Positions 2,858 through 12,104 of a DNA stretch of 64,000 nucleotides are shown here, in pieces. The position numbers and the translations under genes were made by a program. This stretch comes from Rhodospirillaceae bacterium (lineage in GTDB: Bacteria > Pseudomonadota > Alphaproteobacteria > GCA-2731375): contig JABIRL010000243.1 in NCBI GenBank assembly GCA_018667855.1, positions 3,464 through 67,463 of the forward strand, in the 5' to 3' direction. The notes under the pieces were generated by a model, which worked only from the letters and a program-made list of their open reading frames with translations, had not been told where the DNA came from and did not search any database. Position 1 is the stretch's first letter; each line of letters opens with the position of its first letter.

Positions 2858-4012
2858 TTAGCCGGTAGTGCTATTCGGTTCGGCCAGGAACGCCTTGAAG
2901 CGATCAGCCACCTCTCTTGGCGACAGTGTCGGTCTGCCGAGGCTATCTAGGGAGCCGGGACGAATACGTACATGAATAAGGTGGGGCCCTGGTTTTTCCA
3001 GCGCCGCCACGAAGGCTTTTTCGAAGCCATCGGGATCGTTGGCGAGGGCGGCGCCGGCATAGCCGCAGGACAGAGCGGCACCGGCGAAATCGACGCTTGG
3101 CGATACGGTCGGCTGGCCCCCCGTCGAGTCATGAACGCCATTGTCGAGAATAATGTGGACCAGATTGTCCGGGCCCATCGCGCCGATCGTGGCGAAGGCG
3201 CCCAGCTTCATCAGGGCGGCGCCGTCACCGTCGAGCACGACCACGGGCCGGTCCGAATTCAATGCCACCCCCAGGCCCATCGGTCCCGCGCAGCCCATGG
3301 AGCCGACCTGATAGAGGTGCTGCGGCCGATCGGCGAGGGTGAACAATTCGCGCCCGCACTTGCCGGTGCTCGCCACTATCGCGGCATTATCGGGGACGGC
3401 GGCGAGCACGCGTTCTAAAATCGCGTAGCGGGTCGGCAGCTCCGCCGAGACGGAAAGGTCGGTACGTGTACCGCTCGGTCGCACGGGAGGCGTTGTTTCG
3501 CTCAAGCCGTCATCGTGAACGCTGCCCTTTTCCATGATGAAGGCGAAGGGCAGACGGGTTTCGTTCAGGCTCGCCGACATCGCCGCGATCGCCGGGCCGA
3601 TTTCGTCCGCCGTGGCCGGAAAGGCCATATGGGGGATACGCAGAGTGTCGAGCAGGGCCGGCGTGATCTGACCCATCAGCTCGTGCTGCGGCTCGTCCGC
3701 CAAGCCAGGCTGGCCGCGCCAGGTAACCACCAGCAAGGTTGGAATTTGAAATGGTGCGTTGAGGGAAGTGAGCGGGTTCACCGCGTTGCCGAGACCGGAA
3801 TTTTGGCACATCACCACGGTCTGCCGGCCGGCCAGCCAGGCGCCCGCCGCGATGCCGACCGCCTCGCCCTCGCTCGCCGCCCCGACATAGCGGTTGGCGG
3901 GATCATTGATTACCCGGTTGATCAACGGCGTCAGGTAGGAGCAGGGCACGCCAGTGTAAAAATCAAAACCCTCTTGCCGCGCGGGTCCAAGAAAATCGTC
4001 GGCATTGATCAT
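2858..4012 (-). CDS. ppd: Phosphonopyruvate decarboxylase (TPP-dependent)
   Basis: 384 aa with a split TPP-binding fold (GDG...N motifs) and the length typical of Ppd/AepY. It lies 42 bp downstream of a PEP mutase gene in the same orientation. Confidence 0.8.
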   Translation of the reverse strand: MINADDFLGPARQEGFDFYTGVPCSYLTPLINRVINDPANRYVGAASEGEAVGIAAGAWLAGRQTVVMCQNSGLGNAVNPLTSLNAPFQIPTLLVVTWRGQPGLADEPQHELMGQITPALLDTLRIPHMAFPATADEIGPAIAAMSASLNETRLPFAFIMEKGSVHDDGLSETTPPVRPSGTRTDLSVSAELPTRYAILERVLAAVPDNAAIVASTGKCGRELFTLADRPQHLYQVGSMGCAGPMGLGVALNSDRPVVVLDGDGAALMKLGAFATIGAMGPDNLVHIILDNGVHDSTGGQPTVSPSVDFAGAALSCGYAGAALANDPDGFEKAFVAALEKPGPHLIHVRIRPGSLDSLGRPTLSPREVADRFKAFLAEPNSTTG

Positions 4013-4054: not shown

Positions 4055-5680
4055 TTAGGCATTGAAATTTCCCGCCACGACAACATCCTGTACCGTGTCA
4101 ATATCGAGCCAATGCCCGGTGGTGTAGATGACGCGGATCGTATTGCCATCCTCAACCAACATATTGATCAGATCGGGCATCTTGAATTGCTGCTGCTCCG
4201 GGTTTGACAATAATTCATTCAAGGCGGATTTCATGATCGGAAATCCCTTGGCCGAAACCTTCAAGAATCCCATCCATTCACCGTGAATTTTGGCCTCTGG
4301 AAAATCGTCGCCGAGGCGCTTCAAACTGACATGCGTGGAAAATGTATCTCTTGAGTTCGGATGACTGCAGATGGCCCAATCGGCCTCTCGCCCGGCATTG
4401 CGGCTATTGACCCAATCCGCATCCACGGTGACGACGAAATCTTCCCCGGGTTCTTCCAGCAACGACAAAATATACTTGTTGAAAAGCACATCGCCGTAGG
4501 AAACAACCATGTCCGTACCTAAGTCGCCGAGATGGTCAACCGCCTGCTTTAGCGAGACCAGTTCGCCGGTGCTTTCATGGCGATCATTGTCCACATAGTC
4601 CAGGCCCGGCACATCGACCGCGTGCTTCATGTAACCGCGCACGACGACGAGCTTTTTTATGCCGGCCAAATTGTAGGTTTCGGCGATGTGGGCTAGCAAG
4701 GGCTTGCCGCGAATATCGATCATGACCTTGGGTTTGTCCTCCGTGAGGGCGCCCAGCTCCTTGCCTCTCGAGGCCGCAAGGATCACCGCGCAGGGTGCCT
4801 TTTCCGCCGATGGAAGATATCGCTTTTCAGCTTCCTTGAGCTCTGCTGCCCCTTGCAGGCGGAAAACCTCGTCAACGCCTGCGACATTGTCCTCGATCGA
4901 CAGCAGGTTCCGTTCGGCGTGGATTTGTTTGGCCGTGCGTTGCATGGCCGTAATGGACGCGCGCAGCAAATGATTGGCCCAAATAGCCAAAGAGAAGCCG
5001 GCATCCTCGAATACCTCCGTGGCCGTGGCGTAATATTTGGTCGGCACGATGACCACGGGGCAGCGGTCAGCCCATTCCGTCTTGAAGGCCAGCACTTCGT
5101 CGGCTACCGCCAGGGCGCTGTGGATCAAAATCGCATCGGCGCCTGCCTCATGATAGGCTTCGGCCCGGCGGAGCGCTTCGCCAAGGCCCCAGCCGGCAAT
5201 GAATGCCTCGACGCGCGCGACAATGCTGAAATCGTCATCCAGCTGGGCATCCTTGCCGGCCTTGATCTTGCCGCAAAATTCGTGGATGTCGGCCAGCGGC
5301 TGTGTGTCGCCCGAAATAAAGCTATTGGTTTTCGGAAAAATCTTGTCTTCGATACAGACCGCCGCAATGCCACGCTGCTCCAGCTTGTGGATCAACCGGC
5401 GGAAGTTGTTAAAACTGCCATAGCCGGTATCACCGTCCAGCATGATCGGCACGCTGCTGGCATCCGACATGAATTCCAATGTTTCCAGGACCTGGGTCCA
5501 GGAAGTCTCGTTGTTGTCGCGCACGCCATACTGCGCGGAAATTGTCAGGCCGCTGCCCCAGATGCCCTTGAAGCCCGCTTCCTCGACAATTTTGGCGCTC
5601 AATCCATTGTGTGCCTCACAAATGAATTCAAGCTCTCCCGAGGTTAGTAGCCCGCGAAAAGCGGTGGTCTTTTTCATCAT
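4055..5680 (-). CDS. pepM: Phosphoenolpyruvate phosphomutase (N-terminal) fused to a LicC-like nucleotidyl(cytidylyl)transferase domain (C-terminal)
   Basis: The N-terminal ~290 aa have the ICL/PEPM fold with the PEP-mutase-specific EDK-x5-NS motif ([13 protein letters not shown]). The C-terminal ~240 aa have an NTP-transferase fold ([13 protein letters not shown]...). The gene is ATGA-coupled to phnW upstream. Confidence 0.85.
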
Positions 5681-6852
5681 GTTCCCGTTCTGTTTAAGCT
5701 GCTTGTTTGATTGGTTGCCTTTGATGCCAGATCGTCGATGCCCATCGCTTCCAGCGTTGCCTTGACGGCAGCCAACGCTGCCCGCATTTCCAGCGCGCCC
5801 AGGGCGCCGATACAGCCGATCCGGAAGCTGTCCGCGAGGGCGAGCTTGCCCGGATAGATGACGAAACCGCGGGCGCTTAAATCGTCGTAGAAACGGGTAA
5901 ACTCGAAGCGGCTGTCGGCCGGCATCAGAAAGGTGACGATAATTGGCGCCTGGACGCTATCGGCCAGCAGGGTTTCAAAGCCGAGCTCGCGCATGCCCTG
6001 GACGAGAATATCGCGATTGCCGCCATAGCGGCGATGACGCGCGGCTACGCCGCCTTCCTCCCGGTGTTCGGCGAGGGCCTGGTCGAACGCCGCCAGTACA
6101 TGGGTCGGCGGCGTGAAGCGCCACTGTCCATTGGCTTCCAGACCGCGCCACTGCTCATAAAGATCCAGGGCCAACGAATGGGCATTGCCCTCGGCCAACT
6201 CCAGCCATTGCCTGGCGATCAGCGCGAAGGCGATGCCCGGAACACCTTCGAAGCATTTGTTGGAGGAGGCAATCAGGGCATCGAAGGGCACGCTGTCGCC
6301 ATCGATCGGAATGGCGCCGAAGGCGCTCATCCCGTCAATGATCAGGCGACGCTTATGGGCCTTCGTGACACGGCCAATCGCCACCATGTCGTTCAATATG
6401 CCGGTGGTGGTTTCGCAATGCACGACCACGACATGCTCGATCGCCGCGTCCTCACGCAAGGCCGCGTCCAGGGCCGTTGGATCGACCTGTTGATCCTCCG
6501 GCCAGCGCAACACCGAAACCTGGTGGCCGATCCGCTCCAGTATCGTCACGATGCGCTTGCCATAGGCGCCGTTTTCCAGAACCAGGGTCCGCTGTCCGGG
6601 CGCGATCAGCGTGCCCAGCGTGGCCTCCACGCCAAAAGTGCCACTGCCCTGCACCGGCACCGCGACATGGCTGTCCGCTACCCTTGCGATGTTCAACAAT
6701 CGATCTTGGATGCGCCTGGTGATGGCGATGAAGTCCGTGTCCCTGGAACCCCAATCGCGCAGCATCGCCTGCTTGGTCGCAAGCGATGTCGTCAACGGGC
6801 CCGGGGTCAGGAGATAATTGTCATTTCCACTATCGTTCATGATCAACCGCAT
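5677..6852 (-). CDS. phnW: 2-aminoethylphosphonate:pyruvate aminotransferase
   Basis: 391 aa class V aminotransferase with the PhnW-typical N-terminus ([11 protein letters not shown]). Its 4-bp overlap with the pepM start indicates translational coupling. Confidence 0.85.
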
Positions 6853-7419
6853 GGCGATTGTCAGATCGAGTGTCCATATTCAATACCTCCCCAAAAGGTT
6901 TGTTGTTTTGCCGGGGCGAAATCACGGCTTGAGCACATGAACCGAGCCGACATTTAAATGTCATCAAGGTCTCGCCGTGACTATTGATCACGGCAACGAC
7001 AGAAACATCGAAGTATCCAAGGCAATGGCCACAGAAGACGTAAAGACCATTGTCGTTGACGACGAGTTTGGCGGCGTATTCGGCGATGGTTTGGGCTAAC
7101 TCTTCAACCGCCGAATGAAGGCAGTACGACCCATGGCTCATCCTGCCAACTCTAAGCTGGCAATGGTCATAATGACGACATCGCCAGAAACGCTCGACAA
7201 TCTCAAATTGAATATTTCCCAGCCTATCGGAATACTACCGGCCACGAAATTTCAGGTAACATTTACGTCGAGGGCGATCCTATCCGATTTCCAATAACAT
7301 AGAAACCTTTATCCCGATACTGGCGGTCCAACAGCCGGATACTGGCAACTTTACTGTGTTCGAAAGACCGCCAATTGATGGATTCTATTGAATTTCTATT
7401 CCGCGACAATTTCTTTTCT

Positions 7420-8988
7420 TCACCGCCTTGGCGGACGTTGTTCGACCACGCCGTCTGGCCCGAGCCGTGTGTTGGCCAGGGTCCGTTCATCGTGGTTCAT
7501 GCGCCAGCTGAGCATTTTTTGCGCATAATCAAGGACCAGTCGGTGATAGGCGGGATCGTCGGCGAGATTGTGAAACTCGTGCGGATCGTTTTCCAGATCG
7601 AAAAATAGCGGCGGCAGACCGGTAAAATGGACGTATTTGTAGCGTTTGTCCCAGAGCAGATTGGCGCTGCACTGATCTGGTGTCAGGCCCAGCGTCCGCC
7701 CGCCGTCAAGCCCCGGAAAATGCCGAAAATCGAACGCCGCATGCGCTTCCTCGCGCCAATCTCGGACGTCGGCGCCGTGGCAGAAAGGCAGCAACGAGGC
7801 GCCGTCACAGGCGGCGGGAACCTCAAGACCCAGCCACTCCAGGATCGTCGGCATGAGATCGACATTCTCGCTGAAGGCCTCGATCGCCGTGCCGCGCGCC
7901 TGGTCGGAGGCGGCGCGCGGGTCACGGATGATCAAAGGGATATGGTAGGTCTGTTGGTAGTAGCTGAATTTCGACATCATCCAATGATCGCCCAACTGCT
8001 CGCCATGATCGGAGGTAAAGACGATTAGGGTCCGCTCCCAAGCGCCCGTCTCTTTCAGATGTGCGATCAGGCGTCCGATTTGGTCATCGATCTCCGTTAT
8101 CATGGCGTAGTAGGTCGCCCTGATTTGCCGTATTTCGGCTTCGCCGATGTCAAGGTAATCCTTCAGCAAAGCGCCATGGGTATAGGCTGCATCCAGCTGG
8201 TTCGAGAGATAAAATCGGGTCCATGGATGCTGCTTGGCTTCTTCCTCGGCGCTGGCACGGCGAACGGGCAGCGGCACGTCCGCCGGATCATAGAGGGCAT
8301 GATAGGGTTCGGGCGCGATATACGGGGGATGCGGCGCGTGATAGGAGATGTGGGCGAACCAGGGTGTCGAGGGGCGGTCCGAGATGTAGGCCAACACCTC
8401 ATCGGTTAGAAAGGCCGCGCCGCTGTCTTCCGCCCGGTACCACGTCGGCGCGTAGGTGCGGCCCCGGCTTGGATCGATACCTTCCCGGTTAGGGCGAAAA
8501 AGCGCGCGTGGATCGTCATCGACCTGATACCCCCGCTGTCGCAACGCATTTTTCCATGCCTGGTAGCTGGCATCCATACGGACCACCGGCGTCAACCCCG
8601 GCAACAGTCCGGCCCGCGTCCTGAGCTCGGGGTCTTCCGGGTCCCGGCCGCGCGGGTCGGCGGCGATATCGGTATATCCGAACAGGGCGGGATCATGGCC
8701 CCCCTTGCGGGCCTCGAGCGCGACATTGGCATGGCGGTCGTCCAGCGGCGTGCCGTTCGTCACCGTGCGGTGATTATGCTGATAGAGGCCCGTGTAGAGG
8801 CTGGCGCGTGCCGGCCCACAGGGCGTGGACTGGGAATAGTGGTGGCGAAACAGGGTGCCCATCGCCGCCAGCGCGTCCAGATGCGGCGTCTTCACGATCG
8901 CATGGCCCTGGGCGGAGAGGCATTCGCCCCGCCACTGATCCGCTGTGATAAAAAGTACGTTTTCCACCGTCTTGCCCGTCGTTGTCAT
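7420..8988 (-). CDS. Sulfatase-family (alkaline-phosphatase superfamily) hydrolase, Cys-type formylglycine motif, no signal peptide; arylsulfatase / phosphonate-monoester-hydrolase-like
   Basis: 522 aa. Residues 10-20 (LFITADQ) begin the sulfatase fold directly, with no signal peptide or TM. The C-x-P-x-R signature (TPCGPARASLYTG) and downstream SDHG metal ligands are present. Confidence 0.8.
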   Translation of the reverse strand: MTTTGKTVENVLFITADQWRGECLSAQGHAIVKTPHLDALAAMGTLFRHHYSQSTPCGPARASLYTGLYQHNHRTVTNGTPLDDRHANVALEARKGGHDPALFGYTDIAADPRGRDPEDPELRTRAGLLPGLTPVVRMDASYQAWKNALRQRGYQVDDDPRALFRPNREGIDPSRGRTYAPTWYRAEDSGAAFLTDEVLAYISDRPSTPWFAHISYHAPHPPYIAPEPYHALYDPADVPLPVRRASAEEEAKQHPWTRFYLSNQLDAAYTHGALLKDYLDIGEAEIRQIRATYYAMITEIDDQIGRLIAHLKETGAWERTLIVFTSDHGEQLGDHWMMSKFSYYQQTYHIPLIIRDPRAASDQARGTAIEAFSENVDLMPTILEWLGLEVPAACDGASLLPFCHGADVRDWREEAHAAFDFRHFPGLDGGRTLGLTPDQCSANLLWDKRYKYVHFTGLPPLFFDLENDPHEFHNLADDPAYHRLVLDYAQKMLSWRMNHDERTLANTRLGPDGVVEQRPPRR

Positions 8989-9008: not shown

Positions 9009-10307
9009 CTACTGTAGGTCGGCTTGCTGTCTGGTTTCAGCCGCCGCCGGGTCGAGGTAGGTATATTCAACGTCTTTAAATTCACCATAAAGGACACGCA
9101 AATATGCCTCTGGATCATGGGGACAGTCGAAGGTGCCGCCGAGGAAGTCAATTGTCGATGTCGGCAGGACGATCTCTTGCGGCACACCATAGCCGCCGCT
9201 TTCTGTCACTGCCATGGCACCCTTGTGGCTTTGCCTTTCCAGCACCGTTTCACCGTGACTGATAGCCTTTCGGTAAAGTGCCACATCAACCCGGATTTCG
9301 CCGCGAAGACGATAGCGCTCCCAGCGAAAGAGCCATGATTTCGGCGCATCGAAGGAGATCGATATGAGATTTTTCCGTTCGAAAAGATCAATGAAGAAGC
9401 CATCCCGCCTACAGCGTTTGCTGAGCCCGGCGGACAACCTATCCCAACTCATCTCGGCGTCCAGCAGAACCGATATATCGATATCGTCCTTCCAGTCCAG
9501 AAGCGTGCCATTCTCCCGTACGGCACCAAGCAGGCTGCCGCCCTCCAACCAGTACACCGCCCCCATATCGCGCAGGCGGTCGGCGACGTAGTGGCAGATT
9601 TCCCGCATATGTTCGCGGCAGCAGGGCGCGGTGTTGAGGCCAAGACGGTTGACGTAAAGGTTGAAGGGACAGGGCGGCGTATTTTTGCTGCAGCCCCTCC
9701 AACTGACGTTGTCCCCGGACAGCACCAGTTCGCGGATGCCGTGGCGCCGACGGAAGGCCTCTAGATCACCGCCCGCCTGGGTCTCCAGGACCGCCAAATC
9801 GCTATCGTTGAAGGAATGGAGCCGCCGTCGCCGGCCGGCCAAGTGCTGGCGCAAGGACCACGACATTTCAATCATCATGGCGGCCGCCAGCATCGCCTGC
9901 AGCTTGAGGTTCGGCACCGCCAAGCCGGCTGCCAGCGCTGGTGCGAGCAACCACAAGCCTGCATGCTCGGCGTGTTTGGCCAGGAATTCCACCCCTCGAT
10001 TGGCCGGACGGAAGGCAATTCCCGGGGCCGCGACAATGGCAAATATGACAATGATGAAGGCAGCCGATACCGCCAGGCCGATTATGTCCAGACCGATTGT
10101 GTCCAGATCATGGCCCGACAGCGACACCCAGGCCAGGGTAAGGGCCACGAGAAACCCTGTCGTTGCCACGGCAGAGGGGCCAAGCGCGACCCAGTTCCGC
10201 GGAAAGCGCAGGAGGCGAACGAAGGATAGATATGCCGCCACGTAAAGGCCGGCGGCAATCAGCCCGGCGAAAAACTGGGTGACTGCTGAGGCTTCAAAAC
10301 CGGTCAT
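9009..10307 (-). CDS. licD: LicD-family phosphotransferase with N-terminal polytopic membrane domain
   Basis: The C-terminal domain carries the LicD/fukutin motif (VYWLEGGSLLGAVRENGTLLDWKDDIDISV). The N-terminal ~150 aa form 4-6 predicted hydrophobic helices. I prefer the start MTGFEAS at 10307, ATGA-coupled to the upstream NTase. The longer track ORF, which would begin at 10472, has a basic low-complexity 55-aa extension that overlaps the upstream gene. Confidence 0.7.
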   Translation of the reverse strand: MTGFEASAVTQFFAGLIAAGLYVAAYLSFVRLLRFPRNWVALGPSAVATTGFLVALTLAWVSLSGHDLDTIGLDIIGLAVSAAFIIVIFAIVAAPGIAFRPANRGVEFLAKHAEHAGLWLLAPALAAGLAVPNLKLQAMLAAAMMIEMSWSLRQHLAGRRRRLHSFNDSDLAVLETQAGGDLEAFRRRHGIRELVLSGDNVSWRGCSKNTPPCPFNLYVNRLGLNTAPCCREHMREICHYVADRLRDMGAVYWLEGGSLLGAVRENGTLLDWKDDIDISVLLDAEMSWDRLSAGLSKRCRRDGFFIDLFERKNLISISFDAPKSWLFRWERYRLRGEIRVDVALYRKAISHGETVLERQSHKGAMAVTESGGYGVPQEIVLPTSTIDFLGGTFDCPHDPEAYLRVLYGEFKDVEYTYLDPAAAETRQQADLQ

Positions 10308-11143
10308 AAGTCTTGTGCCGCACCTTTGTTGATGTCCTTTGTGCTCACGGTTGTATCGCGGCTTTTCGTTGCCGCCGGTGCGTCGTGCCGGCGACCCGCG
10401 TTCAGCGCGATACGCGGCAGGATTTCGGTTTCGGCGCGCGCGACATCGGCGGCGAAATCGATCTCGATCCAAGGCAACCCGGTGATGTCCTCAAAAGCGA
10501 ATGCGCCCCGTGGTGAGGTCAGCAGCACATCGCGGATCGTCTCCTCGTAGGGCTCGTGGCGGCGGCCTTGGTCCAGATAGAGAGCGGTCTGGGCGATAAT
10601 CAACTGGGCCGCATCGCTGGATAACTTGAACATACCCACGGATTCACCGCAGAAATCGAACCCGGTGCTCAACCATTTGCGGAATTCGACAATCTCGCCG
10701 TCCCGCACACATATCTTGACAGGTTCATCGCCCGGCTCGAAGTCACGATCGAGGAGCAGGCAGTTCCGATGGGGCGAGTTCATCAGACGTTGCAGCAGCT
10801 CTTGGTCATAGAGAATATCGGCATCCATGAGCAGCACCGGGCCGTCGCAACGCAGTTCGTCGCGCACTGTCCACAAGGTGACGATATTGCCCTCCCGATA
10901 ATCCTCATTGAATACCACCCGCACGAAATCCTGCGCGCCCAGGGCCATGATCTCTCGCTCGATTTCCTGGTATTTGTAACCGACGCCCAGCACCAATTCA
11001 TCGATGCCCTGTTGCCTGAGAATTTCGAGGTGATATTCCAGCAACGATTTACCACCGAAGCGCAATAGAACCTTCGGCGGTGGTTCCGTGATACTGGATC
11101 CGAGCCGGGCGCCGATCCCGGCCGCCAACATGACTGCCTTCAT
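10304..11143 (-). CDS. LicC-like sugar-phosphate/phospho-base cytidylyltransferase (stand-alone)
   Basis: 279 aa with an N-terminal MKAVMLAAGIGARLG P-loop-like NTP-transferase signature and overall LicC/PntC-like architecture. Confidence 0.8.
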   Translation of the reverse strand: MKAVMLAAGIGARLGSSITEPPPKVLLRFGGKSLLEYHLEILRQQGIDELVLGVGYKYQEIEREIMALGAQDFVRVVFNEDYREGNIVTLWTVRDELRCDGPVLLMDADILYDQELLQRLMNSPHRNCLLLDRDFEPGDEPVKICVRDGEIVEFRKWLSTGFDFCGESVGMFKLSSDAAQLIIAQTALYLDQGRRHEPYEETIRDVLLTSPRGAFAFEDITGLPWIEIDFAADVARAETEILPRIALNAGRRHDAPAATKSRDTTVSTKDINKGAAQDL

Positions 11144-11234: not shown

Positions 11235-12104
11235 CTAGACTGGTGACCAACTCGCATGGCGCGCCAGGTTGCGCAGAATTTCGGCTTCAGGGCCAAGCCG
11301 GTCGAGACAGGACAGCGCCATCTCCTGATACCGCTGGGCCTGGATTTTCGTATCCCCGACACCAAAGAAATGGATGGCGGTACGCTTGCCGACATCGTTA
11401 CCCGGTAGCTTGCCGACTTCACCAAGACCCGCTTCCACGTCAGCGACATCATCGAGATACTGGTACGACAGCCCGAGGTTCATGCAGGCTTCATAGACGG
11501 CCGTGCGATCTTCCTCGCCGGCGCCGCAAAAAGTCGCGCCGACCCGCGCGGCCGAGGCGTAGAGGGCGCCGCTTTTCCGTCGGTAGCATTCAAGCATCGT
11601 CGCTTGTTCGTCACCACTTGTCGGCTGAGATAAATCGATCTCCTGACCCTCGATCATCAATAGAGCGGCGTTGCTCATCTCGATCGCCCCTGCCAGCCGC
11701 CGCTCGGGCGTCACGGATGGATTGTCGAGCACCGCTCGATAAGCCGTATTGATCAGGTACATCGGCGCCAGATGGACGGCCCATGCCGGGTAAACAATGT
11801 GGGCGCTGGGCTTCCCGCGCCGGTAGTCTGCATCATCCATCGACGGCAAATCGTCCAGTATCAATGACGCCCCGTGCGCCATCTCGACCCCGCAGGCAAG
11901 CGACATACAAATCGTCACGGCATCCCGGTCAAAGATGTTTCCCGCCGCGATGGCCACCATGGCGCGCCAGCGGTGTCCGCCTCCCAACACACCGTATTTG
12001 GCGGTGCGGCAGACTTCCGTGTCGTCCTGCGCCGAGAGAATCTCATCAAGGCGCTGCTCAACGGATTGTCGTACGCGCGTCTTGAAGTCCTCGAATGTGT
12101 TCAT
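11235..12104 (-). CDS. trans-Polyprenyl diphosphate synthase (FPP/GGPP synthase family)
   Basis: 289 aa with the first (LILDDLPSMDDADYRRGKP) and second (YQYLDDVADV) aspartate-rich motifs. Confidence 0.8.
   Translation of the reverse strand: MNTFEDFKTRVRQSVEQRLDEILSAQDDTEVCRTAKYGVLGGGHRWRAMVAIAAGNIFDRDAVTICMSLACGVEMAHGASLILDDLPSMDDADYRRGKPSAHIVYPAWAVHLAPMYLINTAYRAVLDNPSVTPERRLAGAIEMSNAALLMIEGQEIDLSQPTSGDEQATMLECYRRKSGALYASAARVGATFCGAGEEDRTAVYEACMNLGLSYQYLDDVADVEAGLGEVGKLPGNDVGKRTAIHFFGVGDTKIQAQRYQEMALSCLDRLGPEAEILRNLARHASWSPV

What the first reader, a model, noticed from the sequence alone, without database searches (positions are those of the whole stretch)
9009..10472. LicD with an N-terminal polytopic membrane domain; start codon ambiguous and ATGA-coupled to the upstream cytidylyltransferase
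Most LicD proteins are soluble or single-pass. Here about 150 aa of hydrophobic helices precede the LicD catalytic domain. That suggests transfer onto a membrane-embedded acceptor, such as a lipid-linked glycan or a lipid. The ATG at 10307 overlaps the NTase stop, so donor synthesis and transfer are translationally coupled. The longer 487-aa reading would begin at 10472, is Arg-rich low complexity, and overlaps the NTase gene. It is probably not translated.
Basis: partly seen in the sequence, partly recalled or inferred. Interest (0 to 1): 0.55.

Follow-up and report, generated by a model that had tools for sequence, protein, structure and literature searches.

The report
Membrane-anchored FKRP-like LicD phosphotransferase
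This gene encodes a five-helix membrane protein fused to a zinc-finger LicD/FKRP-type transferase, coupled to a cytidylyltransferase inside a 2-aminoethylphosphonate gene cluster, so it is a good candidate for the uncharacterised enzyme that attaches phosphonate to a membrane-bound acceptor, although this copy has a lysine at an invariant catalytic acid.

Summary
The gene lies on the - strand at 9009-10307 and encodes 432 aa. Its ATG sits in an ATGA overlap with the stop of the upstream LicC/PntC-like cytidylyltransferase. The 487-aa TTG reading is not real: 120 homologues start at M-T/I-G-F/I-E-A-S, and 10 of 12 related loci have stops in the extension frame. Residues 8-157 form five hydrophobic helices, and loop charges predict N-out/C-in with a cytoplasmic catalytic domain. 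That domain is FKRP-like. Human FKRP is the only significant match among solved structures, and its four zinc-finger cysteines are invariant here. The NTase-LicD pair is conserved in marine Alphaproteobacteria. In this window it heads a cluster with a phosphonate-monoester-hydrolase homologue, AEP transaminase, a Ppm-NTase fusion and Ppd. The likeliest function is transfer of aminoethylphosphonyl from CMP-AEP to a membrane-embedded acceptor. Neither donor nor acceptor is proven, and about half of the long related loci lack Ppm nearby. I rate it an uncharacterised variant of a known kind, of moderate interest.

The parts
9009..10307 (-). CDS of the TM-LicD protein (432 aa; ATG start at 10307, stop codon included)
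   Evidence: ORF. Start fixed by the homologue N-termini and by stops in the upstream frame of relatives. More than 700 homologues found; the best 120 are 62-86% identical and mostly 419-446 aa long.
9837..10286 (-). N-terminal membrane domain, residues 8-157: five TM helices (8-32, 44-62, 75-97, 113-130, 134-157) plus a short cytoplasmic helix at 104-111. Predicted N-out/C-in.
   Evidence: Hydropathy, AF2 helices, positive-inside loop counts. Invariant Y22, Y26, R37, W39, P95 and E147, and near-invariant F84, F99, E107, W119 and W150 (115-118 of the 120). No Pfam family matches it.
10073..10107 (-). 15-nt tandem duplication (TCTGGACAnAATCGG, two copies) that adds 5 aa (DLDTI) in periplasmic loop 2. 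Unique to this window.
   Evidence: TRF: period 15, 2.3 copies, 90% match. All other family members have a gap here.
9609..9701 (-). C4 zinc-finger loop, residues 203-233 (W-x-G-C206-x6-C213 ... P-C229-C230-R-x-H)
   Evidence: Aligns to FKRP C289/C296/C317/C318 (PMC6965139 read). C206, C229 and C230 are present in all 120 homologues and C213 in 119. Most conserved segment of the family, 90% mean pairwise identity.
9273..9557 (-). Nucleotidyltransferase-fold catalytic core, residues 251-345: W-L-E-G-G-S-L-L-G-A-x-R, W272-K273-D274-D275-I-D277, and R-V-D341
   Evidence: Pfam LicD match at 251-280, FKRP alignment, Foldseek FKRP E 5e-7, invariant columns.
9489..9491 (-). Codon 273, AAG (Lys) where the family has GAG (Glu). 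It aligns to FKRP Asp360 (metal site I).
   Evidence: E in 120 of 120 homologues. An independent 1100-nt metagenome contig (L087) is identical to the window except for this one base. FKRP D360A has no detectable activity (PMC6965139).
10304..10307 (-). ATGA: the LicD start overlaps the NTase stop
   Evidence: ATGA or GTGA occurs at this junction in 48 of 61 distinct loci. Longest-ORF calling gives a 4-nt overlap in 47 of 58 loci.
10308..10472 (-). Arg-rich upstream extension of the LicD frame. Not translated as LicD; this DNA codes for the NTase C-terminus.
   Evidence: The LicD frame has 1-4 stops in 10 of 12 relatives. The NTase frame is open in 12 of 12, with a conserved ...FEDITGLPWIEIDFAADVARAETEILPRI....
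10304..11143 (-). LicC/PntC-like cytidylyltransferase (279 aa)
   Evidence: PF12804. Best solved relatives are S. pneumoniae LicC (E 3.8e-13) and the T. denticola PntC domain (E 2.1e-12, full length). Found immediately upstream of LicD in 61 of 86 loci, many of the rest being truncated contigs.
7420..8988 (-). Phosphonate-monoester-hydrolase (PehA/PMH)-like enzyme of the sulfatase family, with no signal peptide evident
   Evidence: PF00884. NF045661 PehA 603 bits, below its 900-bit cut-off. PDB: R. leguminosarum PMH 2vqr E 3e-149 and B. caryophylli PMH 2w8s E 3e-144. CGPAR formylglycine motif at residue 57. Directly downstream of LicD in 12 loci.
6853..7419 (-). Conserved AT-rich (47% GC) non-coding spacer between the PMH-like gene and the AEP transaminase gene. 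Possible promoter or leader of the AEP genes.
   Evidence: 84% nucleotide identity to L004, against 68-77% at third codon positions of flanking genes. No codon periodicity, so the 103-aa ORF at 6830-7141 is not coding. No Rfam match. No net covariation.
5677..6852 (-). 2-aminoethylphosphonate-pyruvate transaminase (AEPT)
   Evidence: NF010006 511.7 bits (cut-off 296) and TIGR02326 457.5 bits.
4055..5680 (-). PEP mutase (Ppm) fused to a C-terminal MobA-like nucleotidyltransferase domain
   Evidence: PF13714 at residues 8-253 plus PF12804 at 298-420. TIGR02320 380 bits (cut-off 319.55). [10 protein letters not shown] motif at residue 111.
2858..4012 (-). Phosphonopyruvate decarboxylase (Ppd)
   Evidence: TIGR03297 445 bits (cut-off 312.5).
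11235..12104 (-). FPP/GGPP-synthase-like polyprenyl synthase, 91 nt upstream of the NTase. Adjacent, but probably not part of the system.
   Evidence: PF00348. No homologue near LicD in any of 86 related loci.

Best explanation
The gene encodes an inner-membrane enzyme with five N-terminal transmembrane helices (N-terminus periplasmic). These hold a cytoplasmic LicD/FKRP-type phosphotransferase domain, which carries a C4 zinc-finger loop, against the inner face of the membrane. It is made by coupled translation right after a LicC/PntC-like cytidylyltransferase. In this window the same operon encodes Ppm (fused to a second NTase), Ppd and AEPT, which together make 2-aminoethylphosphonate (AEP), and a PMH-like hydrolase. 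The proposed mechanism has four steps. (1) PEP is converted through phosphonopyruvate and phosphonoacetaldehyde to AEP. (2) An NTase converts AEP and CTP to CMP-AEP. (3) The TM-LicD uses its two-metal Asp site to transfer the aminoethylphosphonyl group from CMP-AEP to a hydroxyl of an acceptor in the cytoplasmic leaflet, either a lipid or a lipid-linked glycan, releasing CMP. (4) The product is then exported. The membrane domain replaces the FKRP stem domain and probably provides the acceptor site. Shown here: the architecture, predicted topology, start codon, coupling, FKRP-type motifs and gene context. Inferred: the donor, the acceptor and the chemistry. This copy carries E273K at the metal-site-I acid, so it may be weakly active or inactive.
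For: Architecture and topology. Family conservation and start. Coupling. FKRP is the only significant PDB match by sequence (E 3.7e-14) and by fold (E 5e-7). The four Zn cysteines and D275, D277 and D341 are effectively invariant across the 120 homologues (one exception, at C213). The NTase resembles LicC and PntC. Ppm, Ppd and AEPT score above the curated equivalog cut-offs, and Ppm has the EDKxxxxxNS motif. The order NTase-LicD-PMH-(aminotransferase)-AEPT-Ppm/NTase-Ppd recurs on one strand in L002, L004-L012, L015-L017 and L028. L035 and L067 hold the same genes with the AEP block inverted. The only recurrent neighbours of the NTase-LicD pair are AEP-pathway genes and the PMH-like gene. Rice et al. 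2019 (PMC6697681) proposed PntC plus LicD-like transferases as the phosphonyl-tailoring logic, and state that the steps after CMP-AEP are uncharacterised. Clusters with two PntCs, one of them fused to Ppm, are already described for predicted phosphonolipid clusters (PMC8942020). The membrane domain has invariant polar residues on its predicted cytoplasmic face and within TM5 (R37, W39, E147) plus E107 in 118 of the 120. E147 is also kept in distant protist homologues.
Against: No donor or acceptor was tested. Among roughly ten independent loci with at least 6 kb on both sides, only four have Ppm nearby, one has only the PMH-like gene, and five have neither. NTase active-site motifs are the same in Ppm-linked and unlinked loci. 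Close relatives of this Ppm form only about 22 clusters, against more than 120 for LicD, and none shares a contig length with the large LicD-bearing contigs. The pair may therefore use a non-phosphonate donor, or AEP from elsewhere. The best solved relative of the NTase is a phosphocholine enzyme. At the two residues Rice et al. discuss it is mixed: Asp at Tde-PntC Glu104 and Glu at Glu196. The Ppm-fused NTase could be the real AEP activator. The AF2 model is of moderate confidence only (pLDDT 74.7; the segments at 36-41 and 257-274 are below 50). K273 in this copy argues against full activity.
Confidence: 0.55

Rival explanations
1. The NTase-LicD pair is a general phospho-alcohol decoration module that uses CDP-choline, CDP-ethanolamine, CDP-glycerol or CDP-ribitol. 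It only happens to sit beside, or is only sometimes recruited by, the AEP cluster, whose Ppm-fused NTase serves a different transferase or purpose.
For: About half of the long related loci have no Ppm within 10 kb. NTase active-site motifs do not differ between linked and unlinked loci. The closest solved relative of the NTase is LicC, a phosphocholine cytidylyltransferase. Ppm carries its own NTase domain. The nearest relative of the catalytic domain, FKRP, uses CDP-ribitol. The close Ppm family is much smaller than the LicD family.
Against: The only recurrent neighbours besides the NTase are AEP-pathway genes and a phosphonate-monoester-hydrolase homologue, in a fixed co-directional order with short gaps. 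No choline kinase, choline transporter, IspD/TarI-type ribitol gene or glycerol-3-phosphate cytidylyltransferase gene recurs near the pair. Two PntCs per cluster is a known pattern. PntC enzymes resemble LicC closely, and one characterised PntC keeps LicC's aromatic box.
Confidence: 0.3
2. In this genome the gene is a crippled allele. E273K removes the metal-site-I carboxylate, so the protein is made but transfers little or nothing, for example as a loss-of-decoration variant.
For: Glu in 120 of 120 homologues and Lys only here. An otherwise identical 1100-nt environmental contig has G where the window has A. The aligned FKRP Asp360 is indispensable, with D360A showing no detectable activity. 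The same copy also has a unique 15-nt duplication. LicD is the fastest-evolving gene of the cluster, 73% identical to L004 against 88-92% for its neighbours.
Against: The frame is intact and all other invariant residues are kept. The change could be a sequencing or consensus error, since no read data are available. A Lys at this site has not been tested in any LicD enzyme. The neighbouring genes look intact.
Confidence: 0.4
3. The membrane domain is only an anchor or oligomerisation module, and the acceptor is a soluble or protein substrate at the membrane surface rather than a lipid-embedded one.
For: FKRP and fukutin are membrane-anchored but act on a glycoprotein glycan. The TM domain is the least conserved part of the protein, 63% mean identity. 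No structural or family match assigns it a lipid-binding function.
Against: A single helix would be enough for anchoring. Five helices with invariant Y22, Y26, R37, W39, P95 and E147 (and E107 and W150 kept in nearly all) persist from Alphaproteobacteria to protists. The conserved motifs lie on the face that meets the catalytic domain.
Confidence: 0.15
4. The 487-aa protein starting at the TTG at 10472 is the real product.
For: The frame is open in this window and in a few relatives.
Against: Homologue N-termini coincide with the ATG. There are stops in this frame in 10 of 12 relatives. The DNA encodes the conserved NTase C-terminus in another frame.
Confidence: 0.02

Closest known systems
Human fukutin-related protein (FKRP), PDB 6KAJ and related entries (PMC6965139)
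   Same: It is the only significant solved relative by sequence and by fold. It shares the NTase-fold catalytic domain, the hG[GS]-type LEGGSLLGA motif, the D-x-D and third Asp, and the C4 zinc-finger loop with the same spacing logic: G-C-x6-C ... P-C-C.
   Different: FKRP is a type II single-pass Golgi protein with a luminal stem domain. This protein has five TM helices, no stem domain, and a predicted cytoplasmic catalytic domain. FKRP Arg295, which binds the acceptor phosphate, is a near-invariant Pro212 here (118 of 120, two Ala), and the Cys-Cys loop is 5 residues shorter. The partner NTase is LicC/PntC-like, not an ISPD/TarI-type CDP-ribitol synthase. Identity is about 40% over 105 residues and undetectable elsewhere.
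LicC/LicD phosphocholine system of Streptococcus pneumoniae and Haemophilus influenzae
   Same: An NTase of the LicC type is followed by a LicD-family transferase in one operon: the donor is activated with CTP, then transferred to a surface polymer precursor (PMC6697681).
   Different: From my own knowledge, classical LicD proteins are about 270 aa with no polytopic domain and no zinc finger; that was not checked here beyond the sample. There is no choline kinase or transporter here. The context is phosphonate biosynthesis.
Phosphonyl-tailoring (Pnt) clusters: PntC plus LicD-like transferase (Rice et al. 2019, PMC6697681)
   Same: Ppm, Ppd, AEPT, a PF12804 NTase (stand-alone and Ppm-fused) and a LicD-family gene sit together, which is the logic the authors proposed.
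   Different: The described examples are from oral Actinobacteria and spirochaetes, and their LicD-like proteins were not characterised. A five-TM, zinc-finger LicD is not mentioned in the two papers read. My literature search for LicD with aminoethylphosphonate found only that one paper.
Predicted 'Group 1' phosphonolipid clusters of Burkholderiales (PMC8942020)
   Same: An AEP core, two PntCs (one fused to Ppm) and a membrane-embedded transferase presumed to act on a lipid.
   Different: The transferase there belongs to the CDP-alcohol phosphatidyltransferase family, not LicD. Those clusters also encode a dioxygenase, which is absent here.
Mycoplasma fermentans Mf1 (NCBIfam NF045866, named 'diacylglycerol cholinephosphotransferase Mf1')
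   Same: A LicD-family enzyme whose NCBIfam name indicates a lipid acceptor, so there is precedent for LicD chemistry on lipids. It is the only NCBIfam hit of this protein.
   Different: The match is very weak, 21 bits against a 225-bit cut-off and over 30 residues only. Mf1 is 240 aa with no TM domain or zinc finger in the model.

Membership tests
LicD family (Pfam PF04991) | Score above Pfam's gathering threshold | tested here: met
   35.2 bits against 22.6, E 1.8e-8. Only residues 251-280 align to profile positions 7-35 of 227.
LicD family (Pfam PF04991) | Nucleotidyltransferase (pol-beta-like) fold | tested here: met
   Foldseek with the AF2 model: FKRP chains at E 5e-7, about 250 aligned columns, TM-score 0.35 normalised on the full length. 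Next come pol-beta and Cid1 at E about 0.05. Model confidence is moderate.
LicD family (Pfam PF04991) | hG[GS] motif and the three catalytic Asp residues (FKRP D362, D364, D416) | tested here: met
   L-E-G-G257, D275, D277 and D341 are present and invariant in 120 homologues. D341 is assigned by motif ([RH]-V-D-[VIL]), not by a residue-level alignment.
LicD family (Pfam PF04991) | Acidic residue directly after the conserved Trp (FKRP D360, metal site I) | tested here: not met
   The window has K273 and 120 of 120 homologues have E. It is a single-base difference from an otherwise identical contig. The family meets this feature; this copy does not.
LicD family (Pfam PF04991) | Transfer of a phospho-alcohol or phosphonyl group from a CDP/CMP-activated donor | not testable with these tools
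   Needs an enzyme assay.
FKRP orthologues | C4 zinc-finger loop (C289, C296, C317, C318) | tested here: met
   C206, C213, C229 and C230 align to the FKRP cysteines and are conserved in 119-120 of the 120 homologues. Zinc binding itself was not tested.
FKRP orthologues | N-terminal signal anchor plus stem domain used for dimerisation and acceptor binding | tested here: not met
   No similarity upstream of residue 183. The N-terminus is five TM helices.
FKRP orthologues | Arg295 in the zinc-finger loop, contacting the acceptor ribitol-phosphate | tested here: not met
   The aligned residue is Pro212 (Pro in 118 of 120 homologues, Ala in 2).
FKRP orthologues | CDP-ribitol donor | not tested
   No IspD/TarI-type gene in the neighbourhood. 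The partner NTase is LicC/PntC-like. This is indirect evidence only.
Phosphonyl-tailoring (Pnt) pathway cluster (Rice et al. 2019) | Genuine Ppm (EDKxxxxxNS) with Ppd and AEPT | tested here: met
   [10 protein letters not shown] at residue 111. TIGR02320, TIGR03297 and NF010006 all score above their cut-offs.
Phosphonyl-tailoring (Pnt) pathway cluster (Rice et al. 2019) | PF12804 nucleotidyltransferase fused to Ppm or within a few genes of it | tested here: met
   One is fused to Ppm. One stands alone, three genes away, and aligns over its full length to Tde-PntC (E 2e-12).
Phosphonyl-tailoring (Pnt) pathway cluster (Rice et al. 2019) | AEP preference of the NTase | tested here: inconclusive
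   At the two discussed positions it has Asp (LicC-like) and Glu (PntC-like). The authors say specificity is mainly steric, so sequence cannot decide.
Phosphonyl-tailoring (Pnt) pathway cluster (Rice et al. 2019) | Consistent co-occurrence of the transferase with Ppm across relatives | tested here: inconclusive
   Adjacent in 4 of about 10 independent long loci, and absent within 10 kb in 5. Whole-genome presence could not be checked.
Phosphonate monoester hydrolase (PehA/PMH), for the downstream gene | Close similarity to characterised PMHs, and the formylglycine C-x-P-x-R motif | tested here: met
   2vqr E 3e-149, 2w8s E 3e-144. CGPAR at residue 57.
Phosphonate monoester hydrolase (PehA/PMH), for the downstream gene | NCBIfam equivalog cut-off for PehA | tested here: not met
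   602.9 bits against a cut-off of 900. It is a family member, not an equivalog.

The most novel reading that the evidence does not exclude
This protein family, the bacterial members together with the protist proteins of the same architecture (Thecamonas, Pygsuia, Lenisia, Diplonema), is the long-missing membrane-embedded aminoethylphosphonyl transferase. It would build phosphonolipids or AEP-decorated lipid-linked glycans directly at the cytoplasmic leaflet, with the five-helix domain forming the lipid-acceptor site. On this reading the FKRP zinc-finger catalytic module, so far described as specific to FKRP orthologues, is an ancient module shared between Alphaproteobacteria and eukaryotes.
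Probability: 0.2. Interest if true: 0.75.

Novelty: new variant of a known kind. Interest (0 to 1): 0.5.

Why it matters
Roughly half of microbial phosphonate gene clusters are thought to make phosphonolipids or phosphonoglycans, yet the step that attaches the activated phosphonate to its acceptor has not been characterised (PMC6697681, PMC8942020). This family is abundant in marine Alphaproteobacteria, compact, and tightly coupled to its NTase. That makes it a practical candidate for reconstituting the attachment step. The natural pair of alleles, E273 and K273, provides a built-in active-site control. It also shows that the zinc-finger loop described as conserved only in FKRP orthologues exists in a large bacterial family and in protists, joined to a membrane domain instead of a stem domain. 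That bears on the origin of the dystroglycan-modifying enzyme FKRP. Finally, it places a phosphonate-monoester-hydrolase homologue in a phosphonate-biosynthesis operon, which hints at a native substrate for that much-studied promiscuous enzyme class.

Tried and rejected
1. The long 487-aa reading is rejected.
2. The polyprenyl synthase as part of the system is rejected. It has no homologue near LicD in any of 86 loci.
3. The AKR and SDR genes downstream of Ppd are not conserved neighbours.
4. The 103-aa ORF at 6830-7141 is rejected as a gene. Substitutions are spread evenly over codon positions (21/18/19 against L004), and amino-acid identity (65%) is lower than nucleotide identity (84%).
5. 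A structured RNA in the 6853-7419 spacer has no Rfam match. The RNAalifold covariation term is +1.44, so there is no net support. One hairpin (alignment columns 430-461) is kept with two compensatory changes.
6. The AF2 model of the membrane domain alone had pLDDT 61 and pTM 0.35. That is too poor for a fold search, so none was run.
7. The genome-contig scan returned only two loci, because the peptide patterns were too specific.
8. The profile search with nine protist sequences returned only 15 proteins, limited by the word index. It did show that the bacterial 433-aa family is their nearest relative (E about 1e-68).
9. I tried to detect Ppm elsewhere in LicD-bearing genomes by matching contig lengths between the two hit lists. 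This was inconclusive, with only the L067 contig matching.
10. Donor specificity cannot be decided from the NTase sequence.
11. The promoter and terminator scan found no more sites than shuffled sequence.


Full report
**Observation.** The gene lies on the - strand. The longest ORF runs from a TTG at 10472 to 9009 (487 aa). An internal ATG at 10307 gives 432 aa. The sequence ...gacttATGAccgg shows that this ATG overlaps the TGA stop (10306-10304) of the upstream 279-aa ORF at 10304-11143. Pfam assigns that upstream ORF to the MobA-like NTP transferases. It assigns the gene itself to LicD: 35.2 bits against a threshold of 22.6, but over residues 251-280 only. Hydropathy shows hydrophobic windows only within the first 134 residues.

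**Start codon.** A search of 5.8 billion proteins found more than 700 relatives. The best 120 are 62-86% identical and mostly 419-446 aa long. Aligned, they all begin at the position of the window's ATG, with a conserved M-[TI]-G-[FI]-[ED]-A-S. Only one has an N-terminal extension, and it is unrelated in sequence. In 12 related loci the 165 nt upstream of the start contain one to four stops in the LicD frame in 10 cases. The NTase frame is open in all 12 and encodes a conserved ...FEDITGLPWIEIDFAADVARAETEILPRI.... The start is the ATG at 10307. An ATGA or GTGA junction occurs in 48 of 61 distinct loci, and longest-ORF calling gives a 4-nt overlap in 47 of 58. The translational coupling is therefore a conserved feature of the family.

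**Membrane domain.** AlphaFold2 with a 34-sequence alignment gave mean pLDDT 74.7 and pTM 0.69. It places helices at 8-32, 44-62, 75-97, 104-111 (short), 113-130 and 134-157. Family-wide loop charges follow the positive-inside rule. Mean K+R is 0, 0.06 and 0 in the N-terminus, loop 2 and loop 4, against 2.1, 2.6 and 4.0 in loop 1, loop 3 and the segment after TM5. The predicted topology is N-out/C-in with five TM helices. That puts the catalytic domain in the cytoplasm, where CTP-activated donors are made. The domain is the least conserved part of the protein (63% mean identity). It still keeps invariant Y22, Y26, R37, W39, P95 and E147, with F84, F99, E107, W119 and W150 conserved in 115-118 of the 120. 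No Pfam family matches it. A model of the domain alone was too poor to use. In a sample of other LicD relatives, hydrophobic segments before the LicD motif numbered 0-2, against 3-5 in this clade.

**Catalytic domain.** Among all PDB sequences, human FKRP is the only match (E 3.7e-14, residues 183-291 against chain positions 226-338 of 6kaj_A). Foldseek with the model again returns only FKRP chains as significant (E 5e-7), followed distantly by pol-beta-type nucleotidyltransferases. The alignment covers the FKRP zinc-finger loop. By the FKRP paper's residue numbering, FKRP G288-C289...C296...P316-C317-C318 corresponds to window G205-C206...C213...P228-C229-C230. Three of these cysteines are present in all 120 homologues and C213 in 119, and this segment is the most conserved in the family (90%). 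The FKRP structure paper states that the four Cys bind Zn. It also reports that D360, D362, D364 and D416 are needed for activity, that R295 in the loop contacts the acceptor phosphate, and that the loop is conserved only in FKRP orthologues and is absent from fukutin (PMC6965139). Here D275, D277 and D341 match D362, D364 and D416 (D341 by motif only). R295 is replaced by Pro212, which is Pro in 118 of the 120 homologues. There is no similarity to the FKRP stem domain. The protein works like an FKRP/LicD phosphotransferase but is not an FKRP orthologue. The five-helix domain occupies the place of the stem domain, which in FKRP helps bind the acceptor.

**An active-site change in this copy.** The residue after the conserved Trp, which aligns to FKRP D360, is Glu in 120 of 120 homologues and Lys in the window (codon AAG, 9489-9491). 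It is one of only two positions where the window departs from a consensus held by at least 95% of homologues, and the only one at a fully invariant residue (the other is L326, where four homologues also have Leu). A 1100-nt contig from an independent metagenome (L087) is identical to the window at 1099 positions. The one difference is this base, G there and A here on the - strand. FKRP D360A has no detectable activity. This is either a real allele with an impaired metal site I or an error in the source assembly, and I cannot tell which. The same copy also has a unique 15-nt tandem duplication (10073-10107) that adds five residues to periplasmic loop 2. The partner NTase shows no deviation at any of its 64 invariant columns.

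**Genomic context.** All of the following lie on the - strand, reading downstream from LicD.
- A sulfatase-family gene (7420-8988). Its best solved relatives are the phosphonate monoester hydrolases of R. leguminosarum (E 3e-149) and B. caryophylli (E 3e-144), and it has a CGPAR formylglycine motif.
- A 567-nt spacer.
- AEP-pyruvate transaminase (5677-6852).
- PEP mutase with the [10 protein letters not shown] signature, fused to a second NTase domain (4055-5680).
- Phosphonopyruvate decarboxylase (2858-4012).

The three AEP enzymes score above the curated equivalog cut-offs. Upstream of the NTase is a polyprenyl synthase (11235-12104).

**Related loci.** I collected 86 related loci and clustered their ORFs. 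The NTase is next to LicD in 61 loci. The PMH-like gene is present in 12, Ppm-NTase in 10, a class-III aminotransferase in 10, AEPT in 10 and Ppd in 8. No other gene recurs except in near-duplicate contigs, and the polyprenyl synthase never does. The order NTase-LicD-PMH-(aminotransferase)-AEPT-Ppm/NTase-Ppd is kept in most of the linked loci (the AEP block is inverted in L035 and L067).

**What the donor is.** The stand-alone NTase is closest to S. pneumoniae LicC (E 3.8e-13). It aligns over its full length to the PntC domain of T. denticola Tde1415 (E 2.1e-12). The Ppm-fused domain is more distant from both. Rice et al. showed that PntC enzymes make CMP-AEP and proposed LicD-like enzymes as the next step, which remains uncharacterised (PMC6697681). 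Clusters with two PntCs, one fused to Ppm, are described for predicted phosphonolipid clusters (PMC8942020). For this window CMP-AEP is the most economical donor, but the evidence is not clean.
- Among about ten independent loci with at least 6 kb on both sides, four have Ppm, one has only the PMH-like gene and five have neither.
- The NTase active-site motifs are the same in linked and unlinked loci.
- The close Ppm family has about 22 clusters, against more than 120 for LicD.
- At the two specificity positions discussed by Rice et al., the NTase is mixed, Asp and Glu.

A phospho-alcohol donor therefore stays a serious rival.

**What the acceptor is.** This is inference only. The catalytic domain is held at the cytoplasmic face by a conserved polytopic domain. 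The invariant residues of that domain lie in the cytoplasmic loops and in TM5. FKRP's acceptor-binding elements (the stem domain and R295) are replaced here. A lipid or lipid-linked glycan in the inner leaflet fits best. The weak NCBIfam hit to the LicD-family lipid cholinephosphotransferase Mf1 shows that such chemistry exists, but says nothing about this protein.

**Distribution.** Named relatives are marine Alphaproteobacteria MAGs, including Hyphomicrobiales and Paracoccaceae. A sensitive search of 1.8 billion cluster representatives found 889 hits, of which only 28 were below 1e-30. Full-length bacterial relatives go down to 34% identity. The next tier consists of eukaryotic proteins of 29-38% identity with the same layout: hydrophobic N-terminal domain including the TM glutamate, zinc finger, and LicD domain. 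By name these come from Thecamonas trahens, Pygsuia biforma, Lenisia limosa and Diplonema ambulator. A profile of these protist proteins finds the bacterial 433-aa family as its nearest relative (E about 1e-68). Animal-type FKRPs with a stem domain follow, along with short zinc-finger LicD proteins without membrane domains.

**Comparison and verdict.** It is a member of the LicD superfamily and of its zinc-finger (FKRP-like) branch. It is not an FKRP orthologue. It sits in a cluster that fits the proposed phosphonyl-tailoring logic. What appears to be new is the fusion to a conserved five-helix domain, the bacterial occurrence of the FKRP-type zinc finger, and the protist counterparts. None of these is mentioned in the papers I read, and my search for LicD with aminoethylphosphonate found only Rice et al.. 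I rate it a new variant of a known kind. Interest is moderate (0.5), because the kind of enzyme was anticipated and neither donor nor acceptor could be established here.

Noticed in passing
window 9489-9491 (- strand, codon 273): Lys replaces a Glu that is invariant in 120 of 120 homologues and aligns to FKRP Asp360. An independent 1100-nt metagenome contig (L087) differs from the window at this single base only.
   Followed up: yes
window 10073-10107: A 15-nt tandem duplication (period 15, 2.3 copies) inserts DLDTI into periplasmic loop 2 of the membrane domain. No other family member has it.
   Followed up: partly
window 7420-8988: A close homologue of the promiscuous phosphonate monoester hydrolases (2vqr, 2w8s) sits directly after LicD in 12 loci, inside a phosphonate-biosynthesis operon. 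I saw no signal peptide. This may point to the native substrate of that enzyme class, which to my knowledge is unknown; I did not verify that here.
   Followed up: partly
window 6853-7419: A 567-nt, 47% GC spacer between the PMH-like gene and AEPT is 84% identical to L004, more than the third codon positions of flanking genes (68-77%). The 103-aa ORF inside it (6830-7141) shows no coding signature. One hairpin is kept with compensatory changes, but overall covariation support is nil and there is no Rfam match.
   Followed up: partly
window 11235-12104: An FPP/GGPP-synthase-like gene lies 91 nt upstream of the NTase on the same strand. It occurs there only in this window, not in any related locus, so a link to a prenyl acceptor is unsupported.
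   Followed up: partly
proteins P0144, P0158, P0163, P0165, P0166: Protists (Lenisia, Pygsuia, Thecamonas, Diplonema) encode proteins with the same polytopic domain, zinc finger and LicD layout, including the conserved TM glutamate. Their nearest relatives are the bacterial family.
   Followed up: partly
L004-L006, L011, L012, L034, L040, L063, L067, L070: A class-III aminotransferase (about 422 aa) recurs near the pair. In the Ppm-linked loci L004-L006, L011 and L012 it lies between the PMH-like gene and AEPT. It also occurs in four loci that show no Ppm in the stretch held, and it is absent from the window.
   Followed up: no
L003 (6931-bp Paracoccaceae contig), positions 5-565 and 6618-6929: The NTase gene is split across the two contig ends with overlapping residues (60-246 at the start, 1-104 at the end). 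This suggests a circular or tandemly mis-assembled contig.
   Followed up: no
L067 12954-13244: A 53%-identical fragment covering 22% of LicD lies between the intact LicD and the inverted Ppd-Ppm-AEPT block. It is probably a remnant of a second copy left by a rearrangement.
   Followed up: no
window 9009-10307 compared with neighbours: LicD is the fastest-evolving gene of the cluster. It is 73% identical to L004 at the amino-acid level, against 88-92% for the NTase, the PMH-like gene, AEPT and Ppm, with similar third-position divergence.
   Followed up: partly
window 1-64000: No Rfam family reaches its gathering score anywhere in the window.
   Followed up: yes
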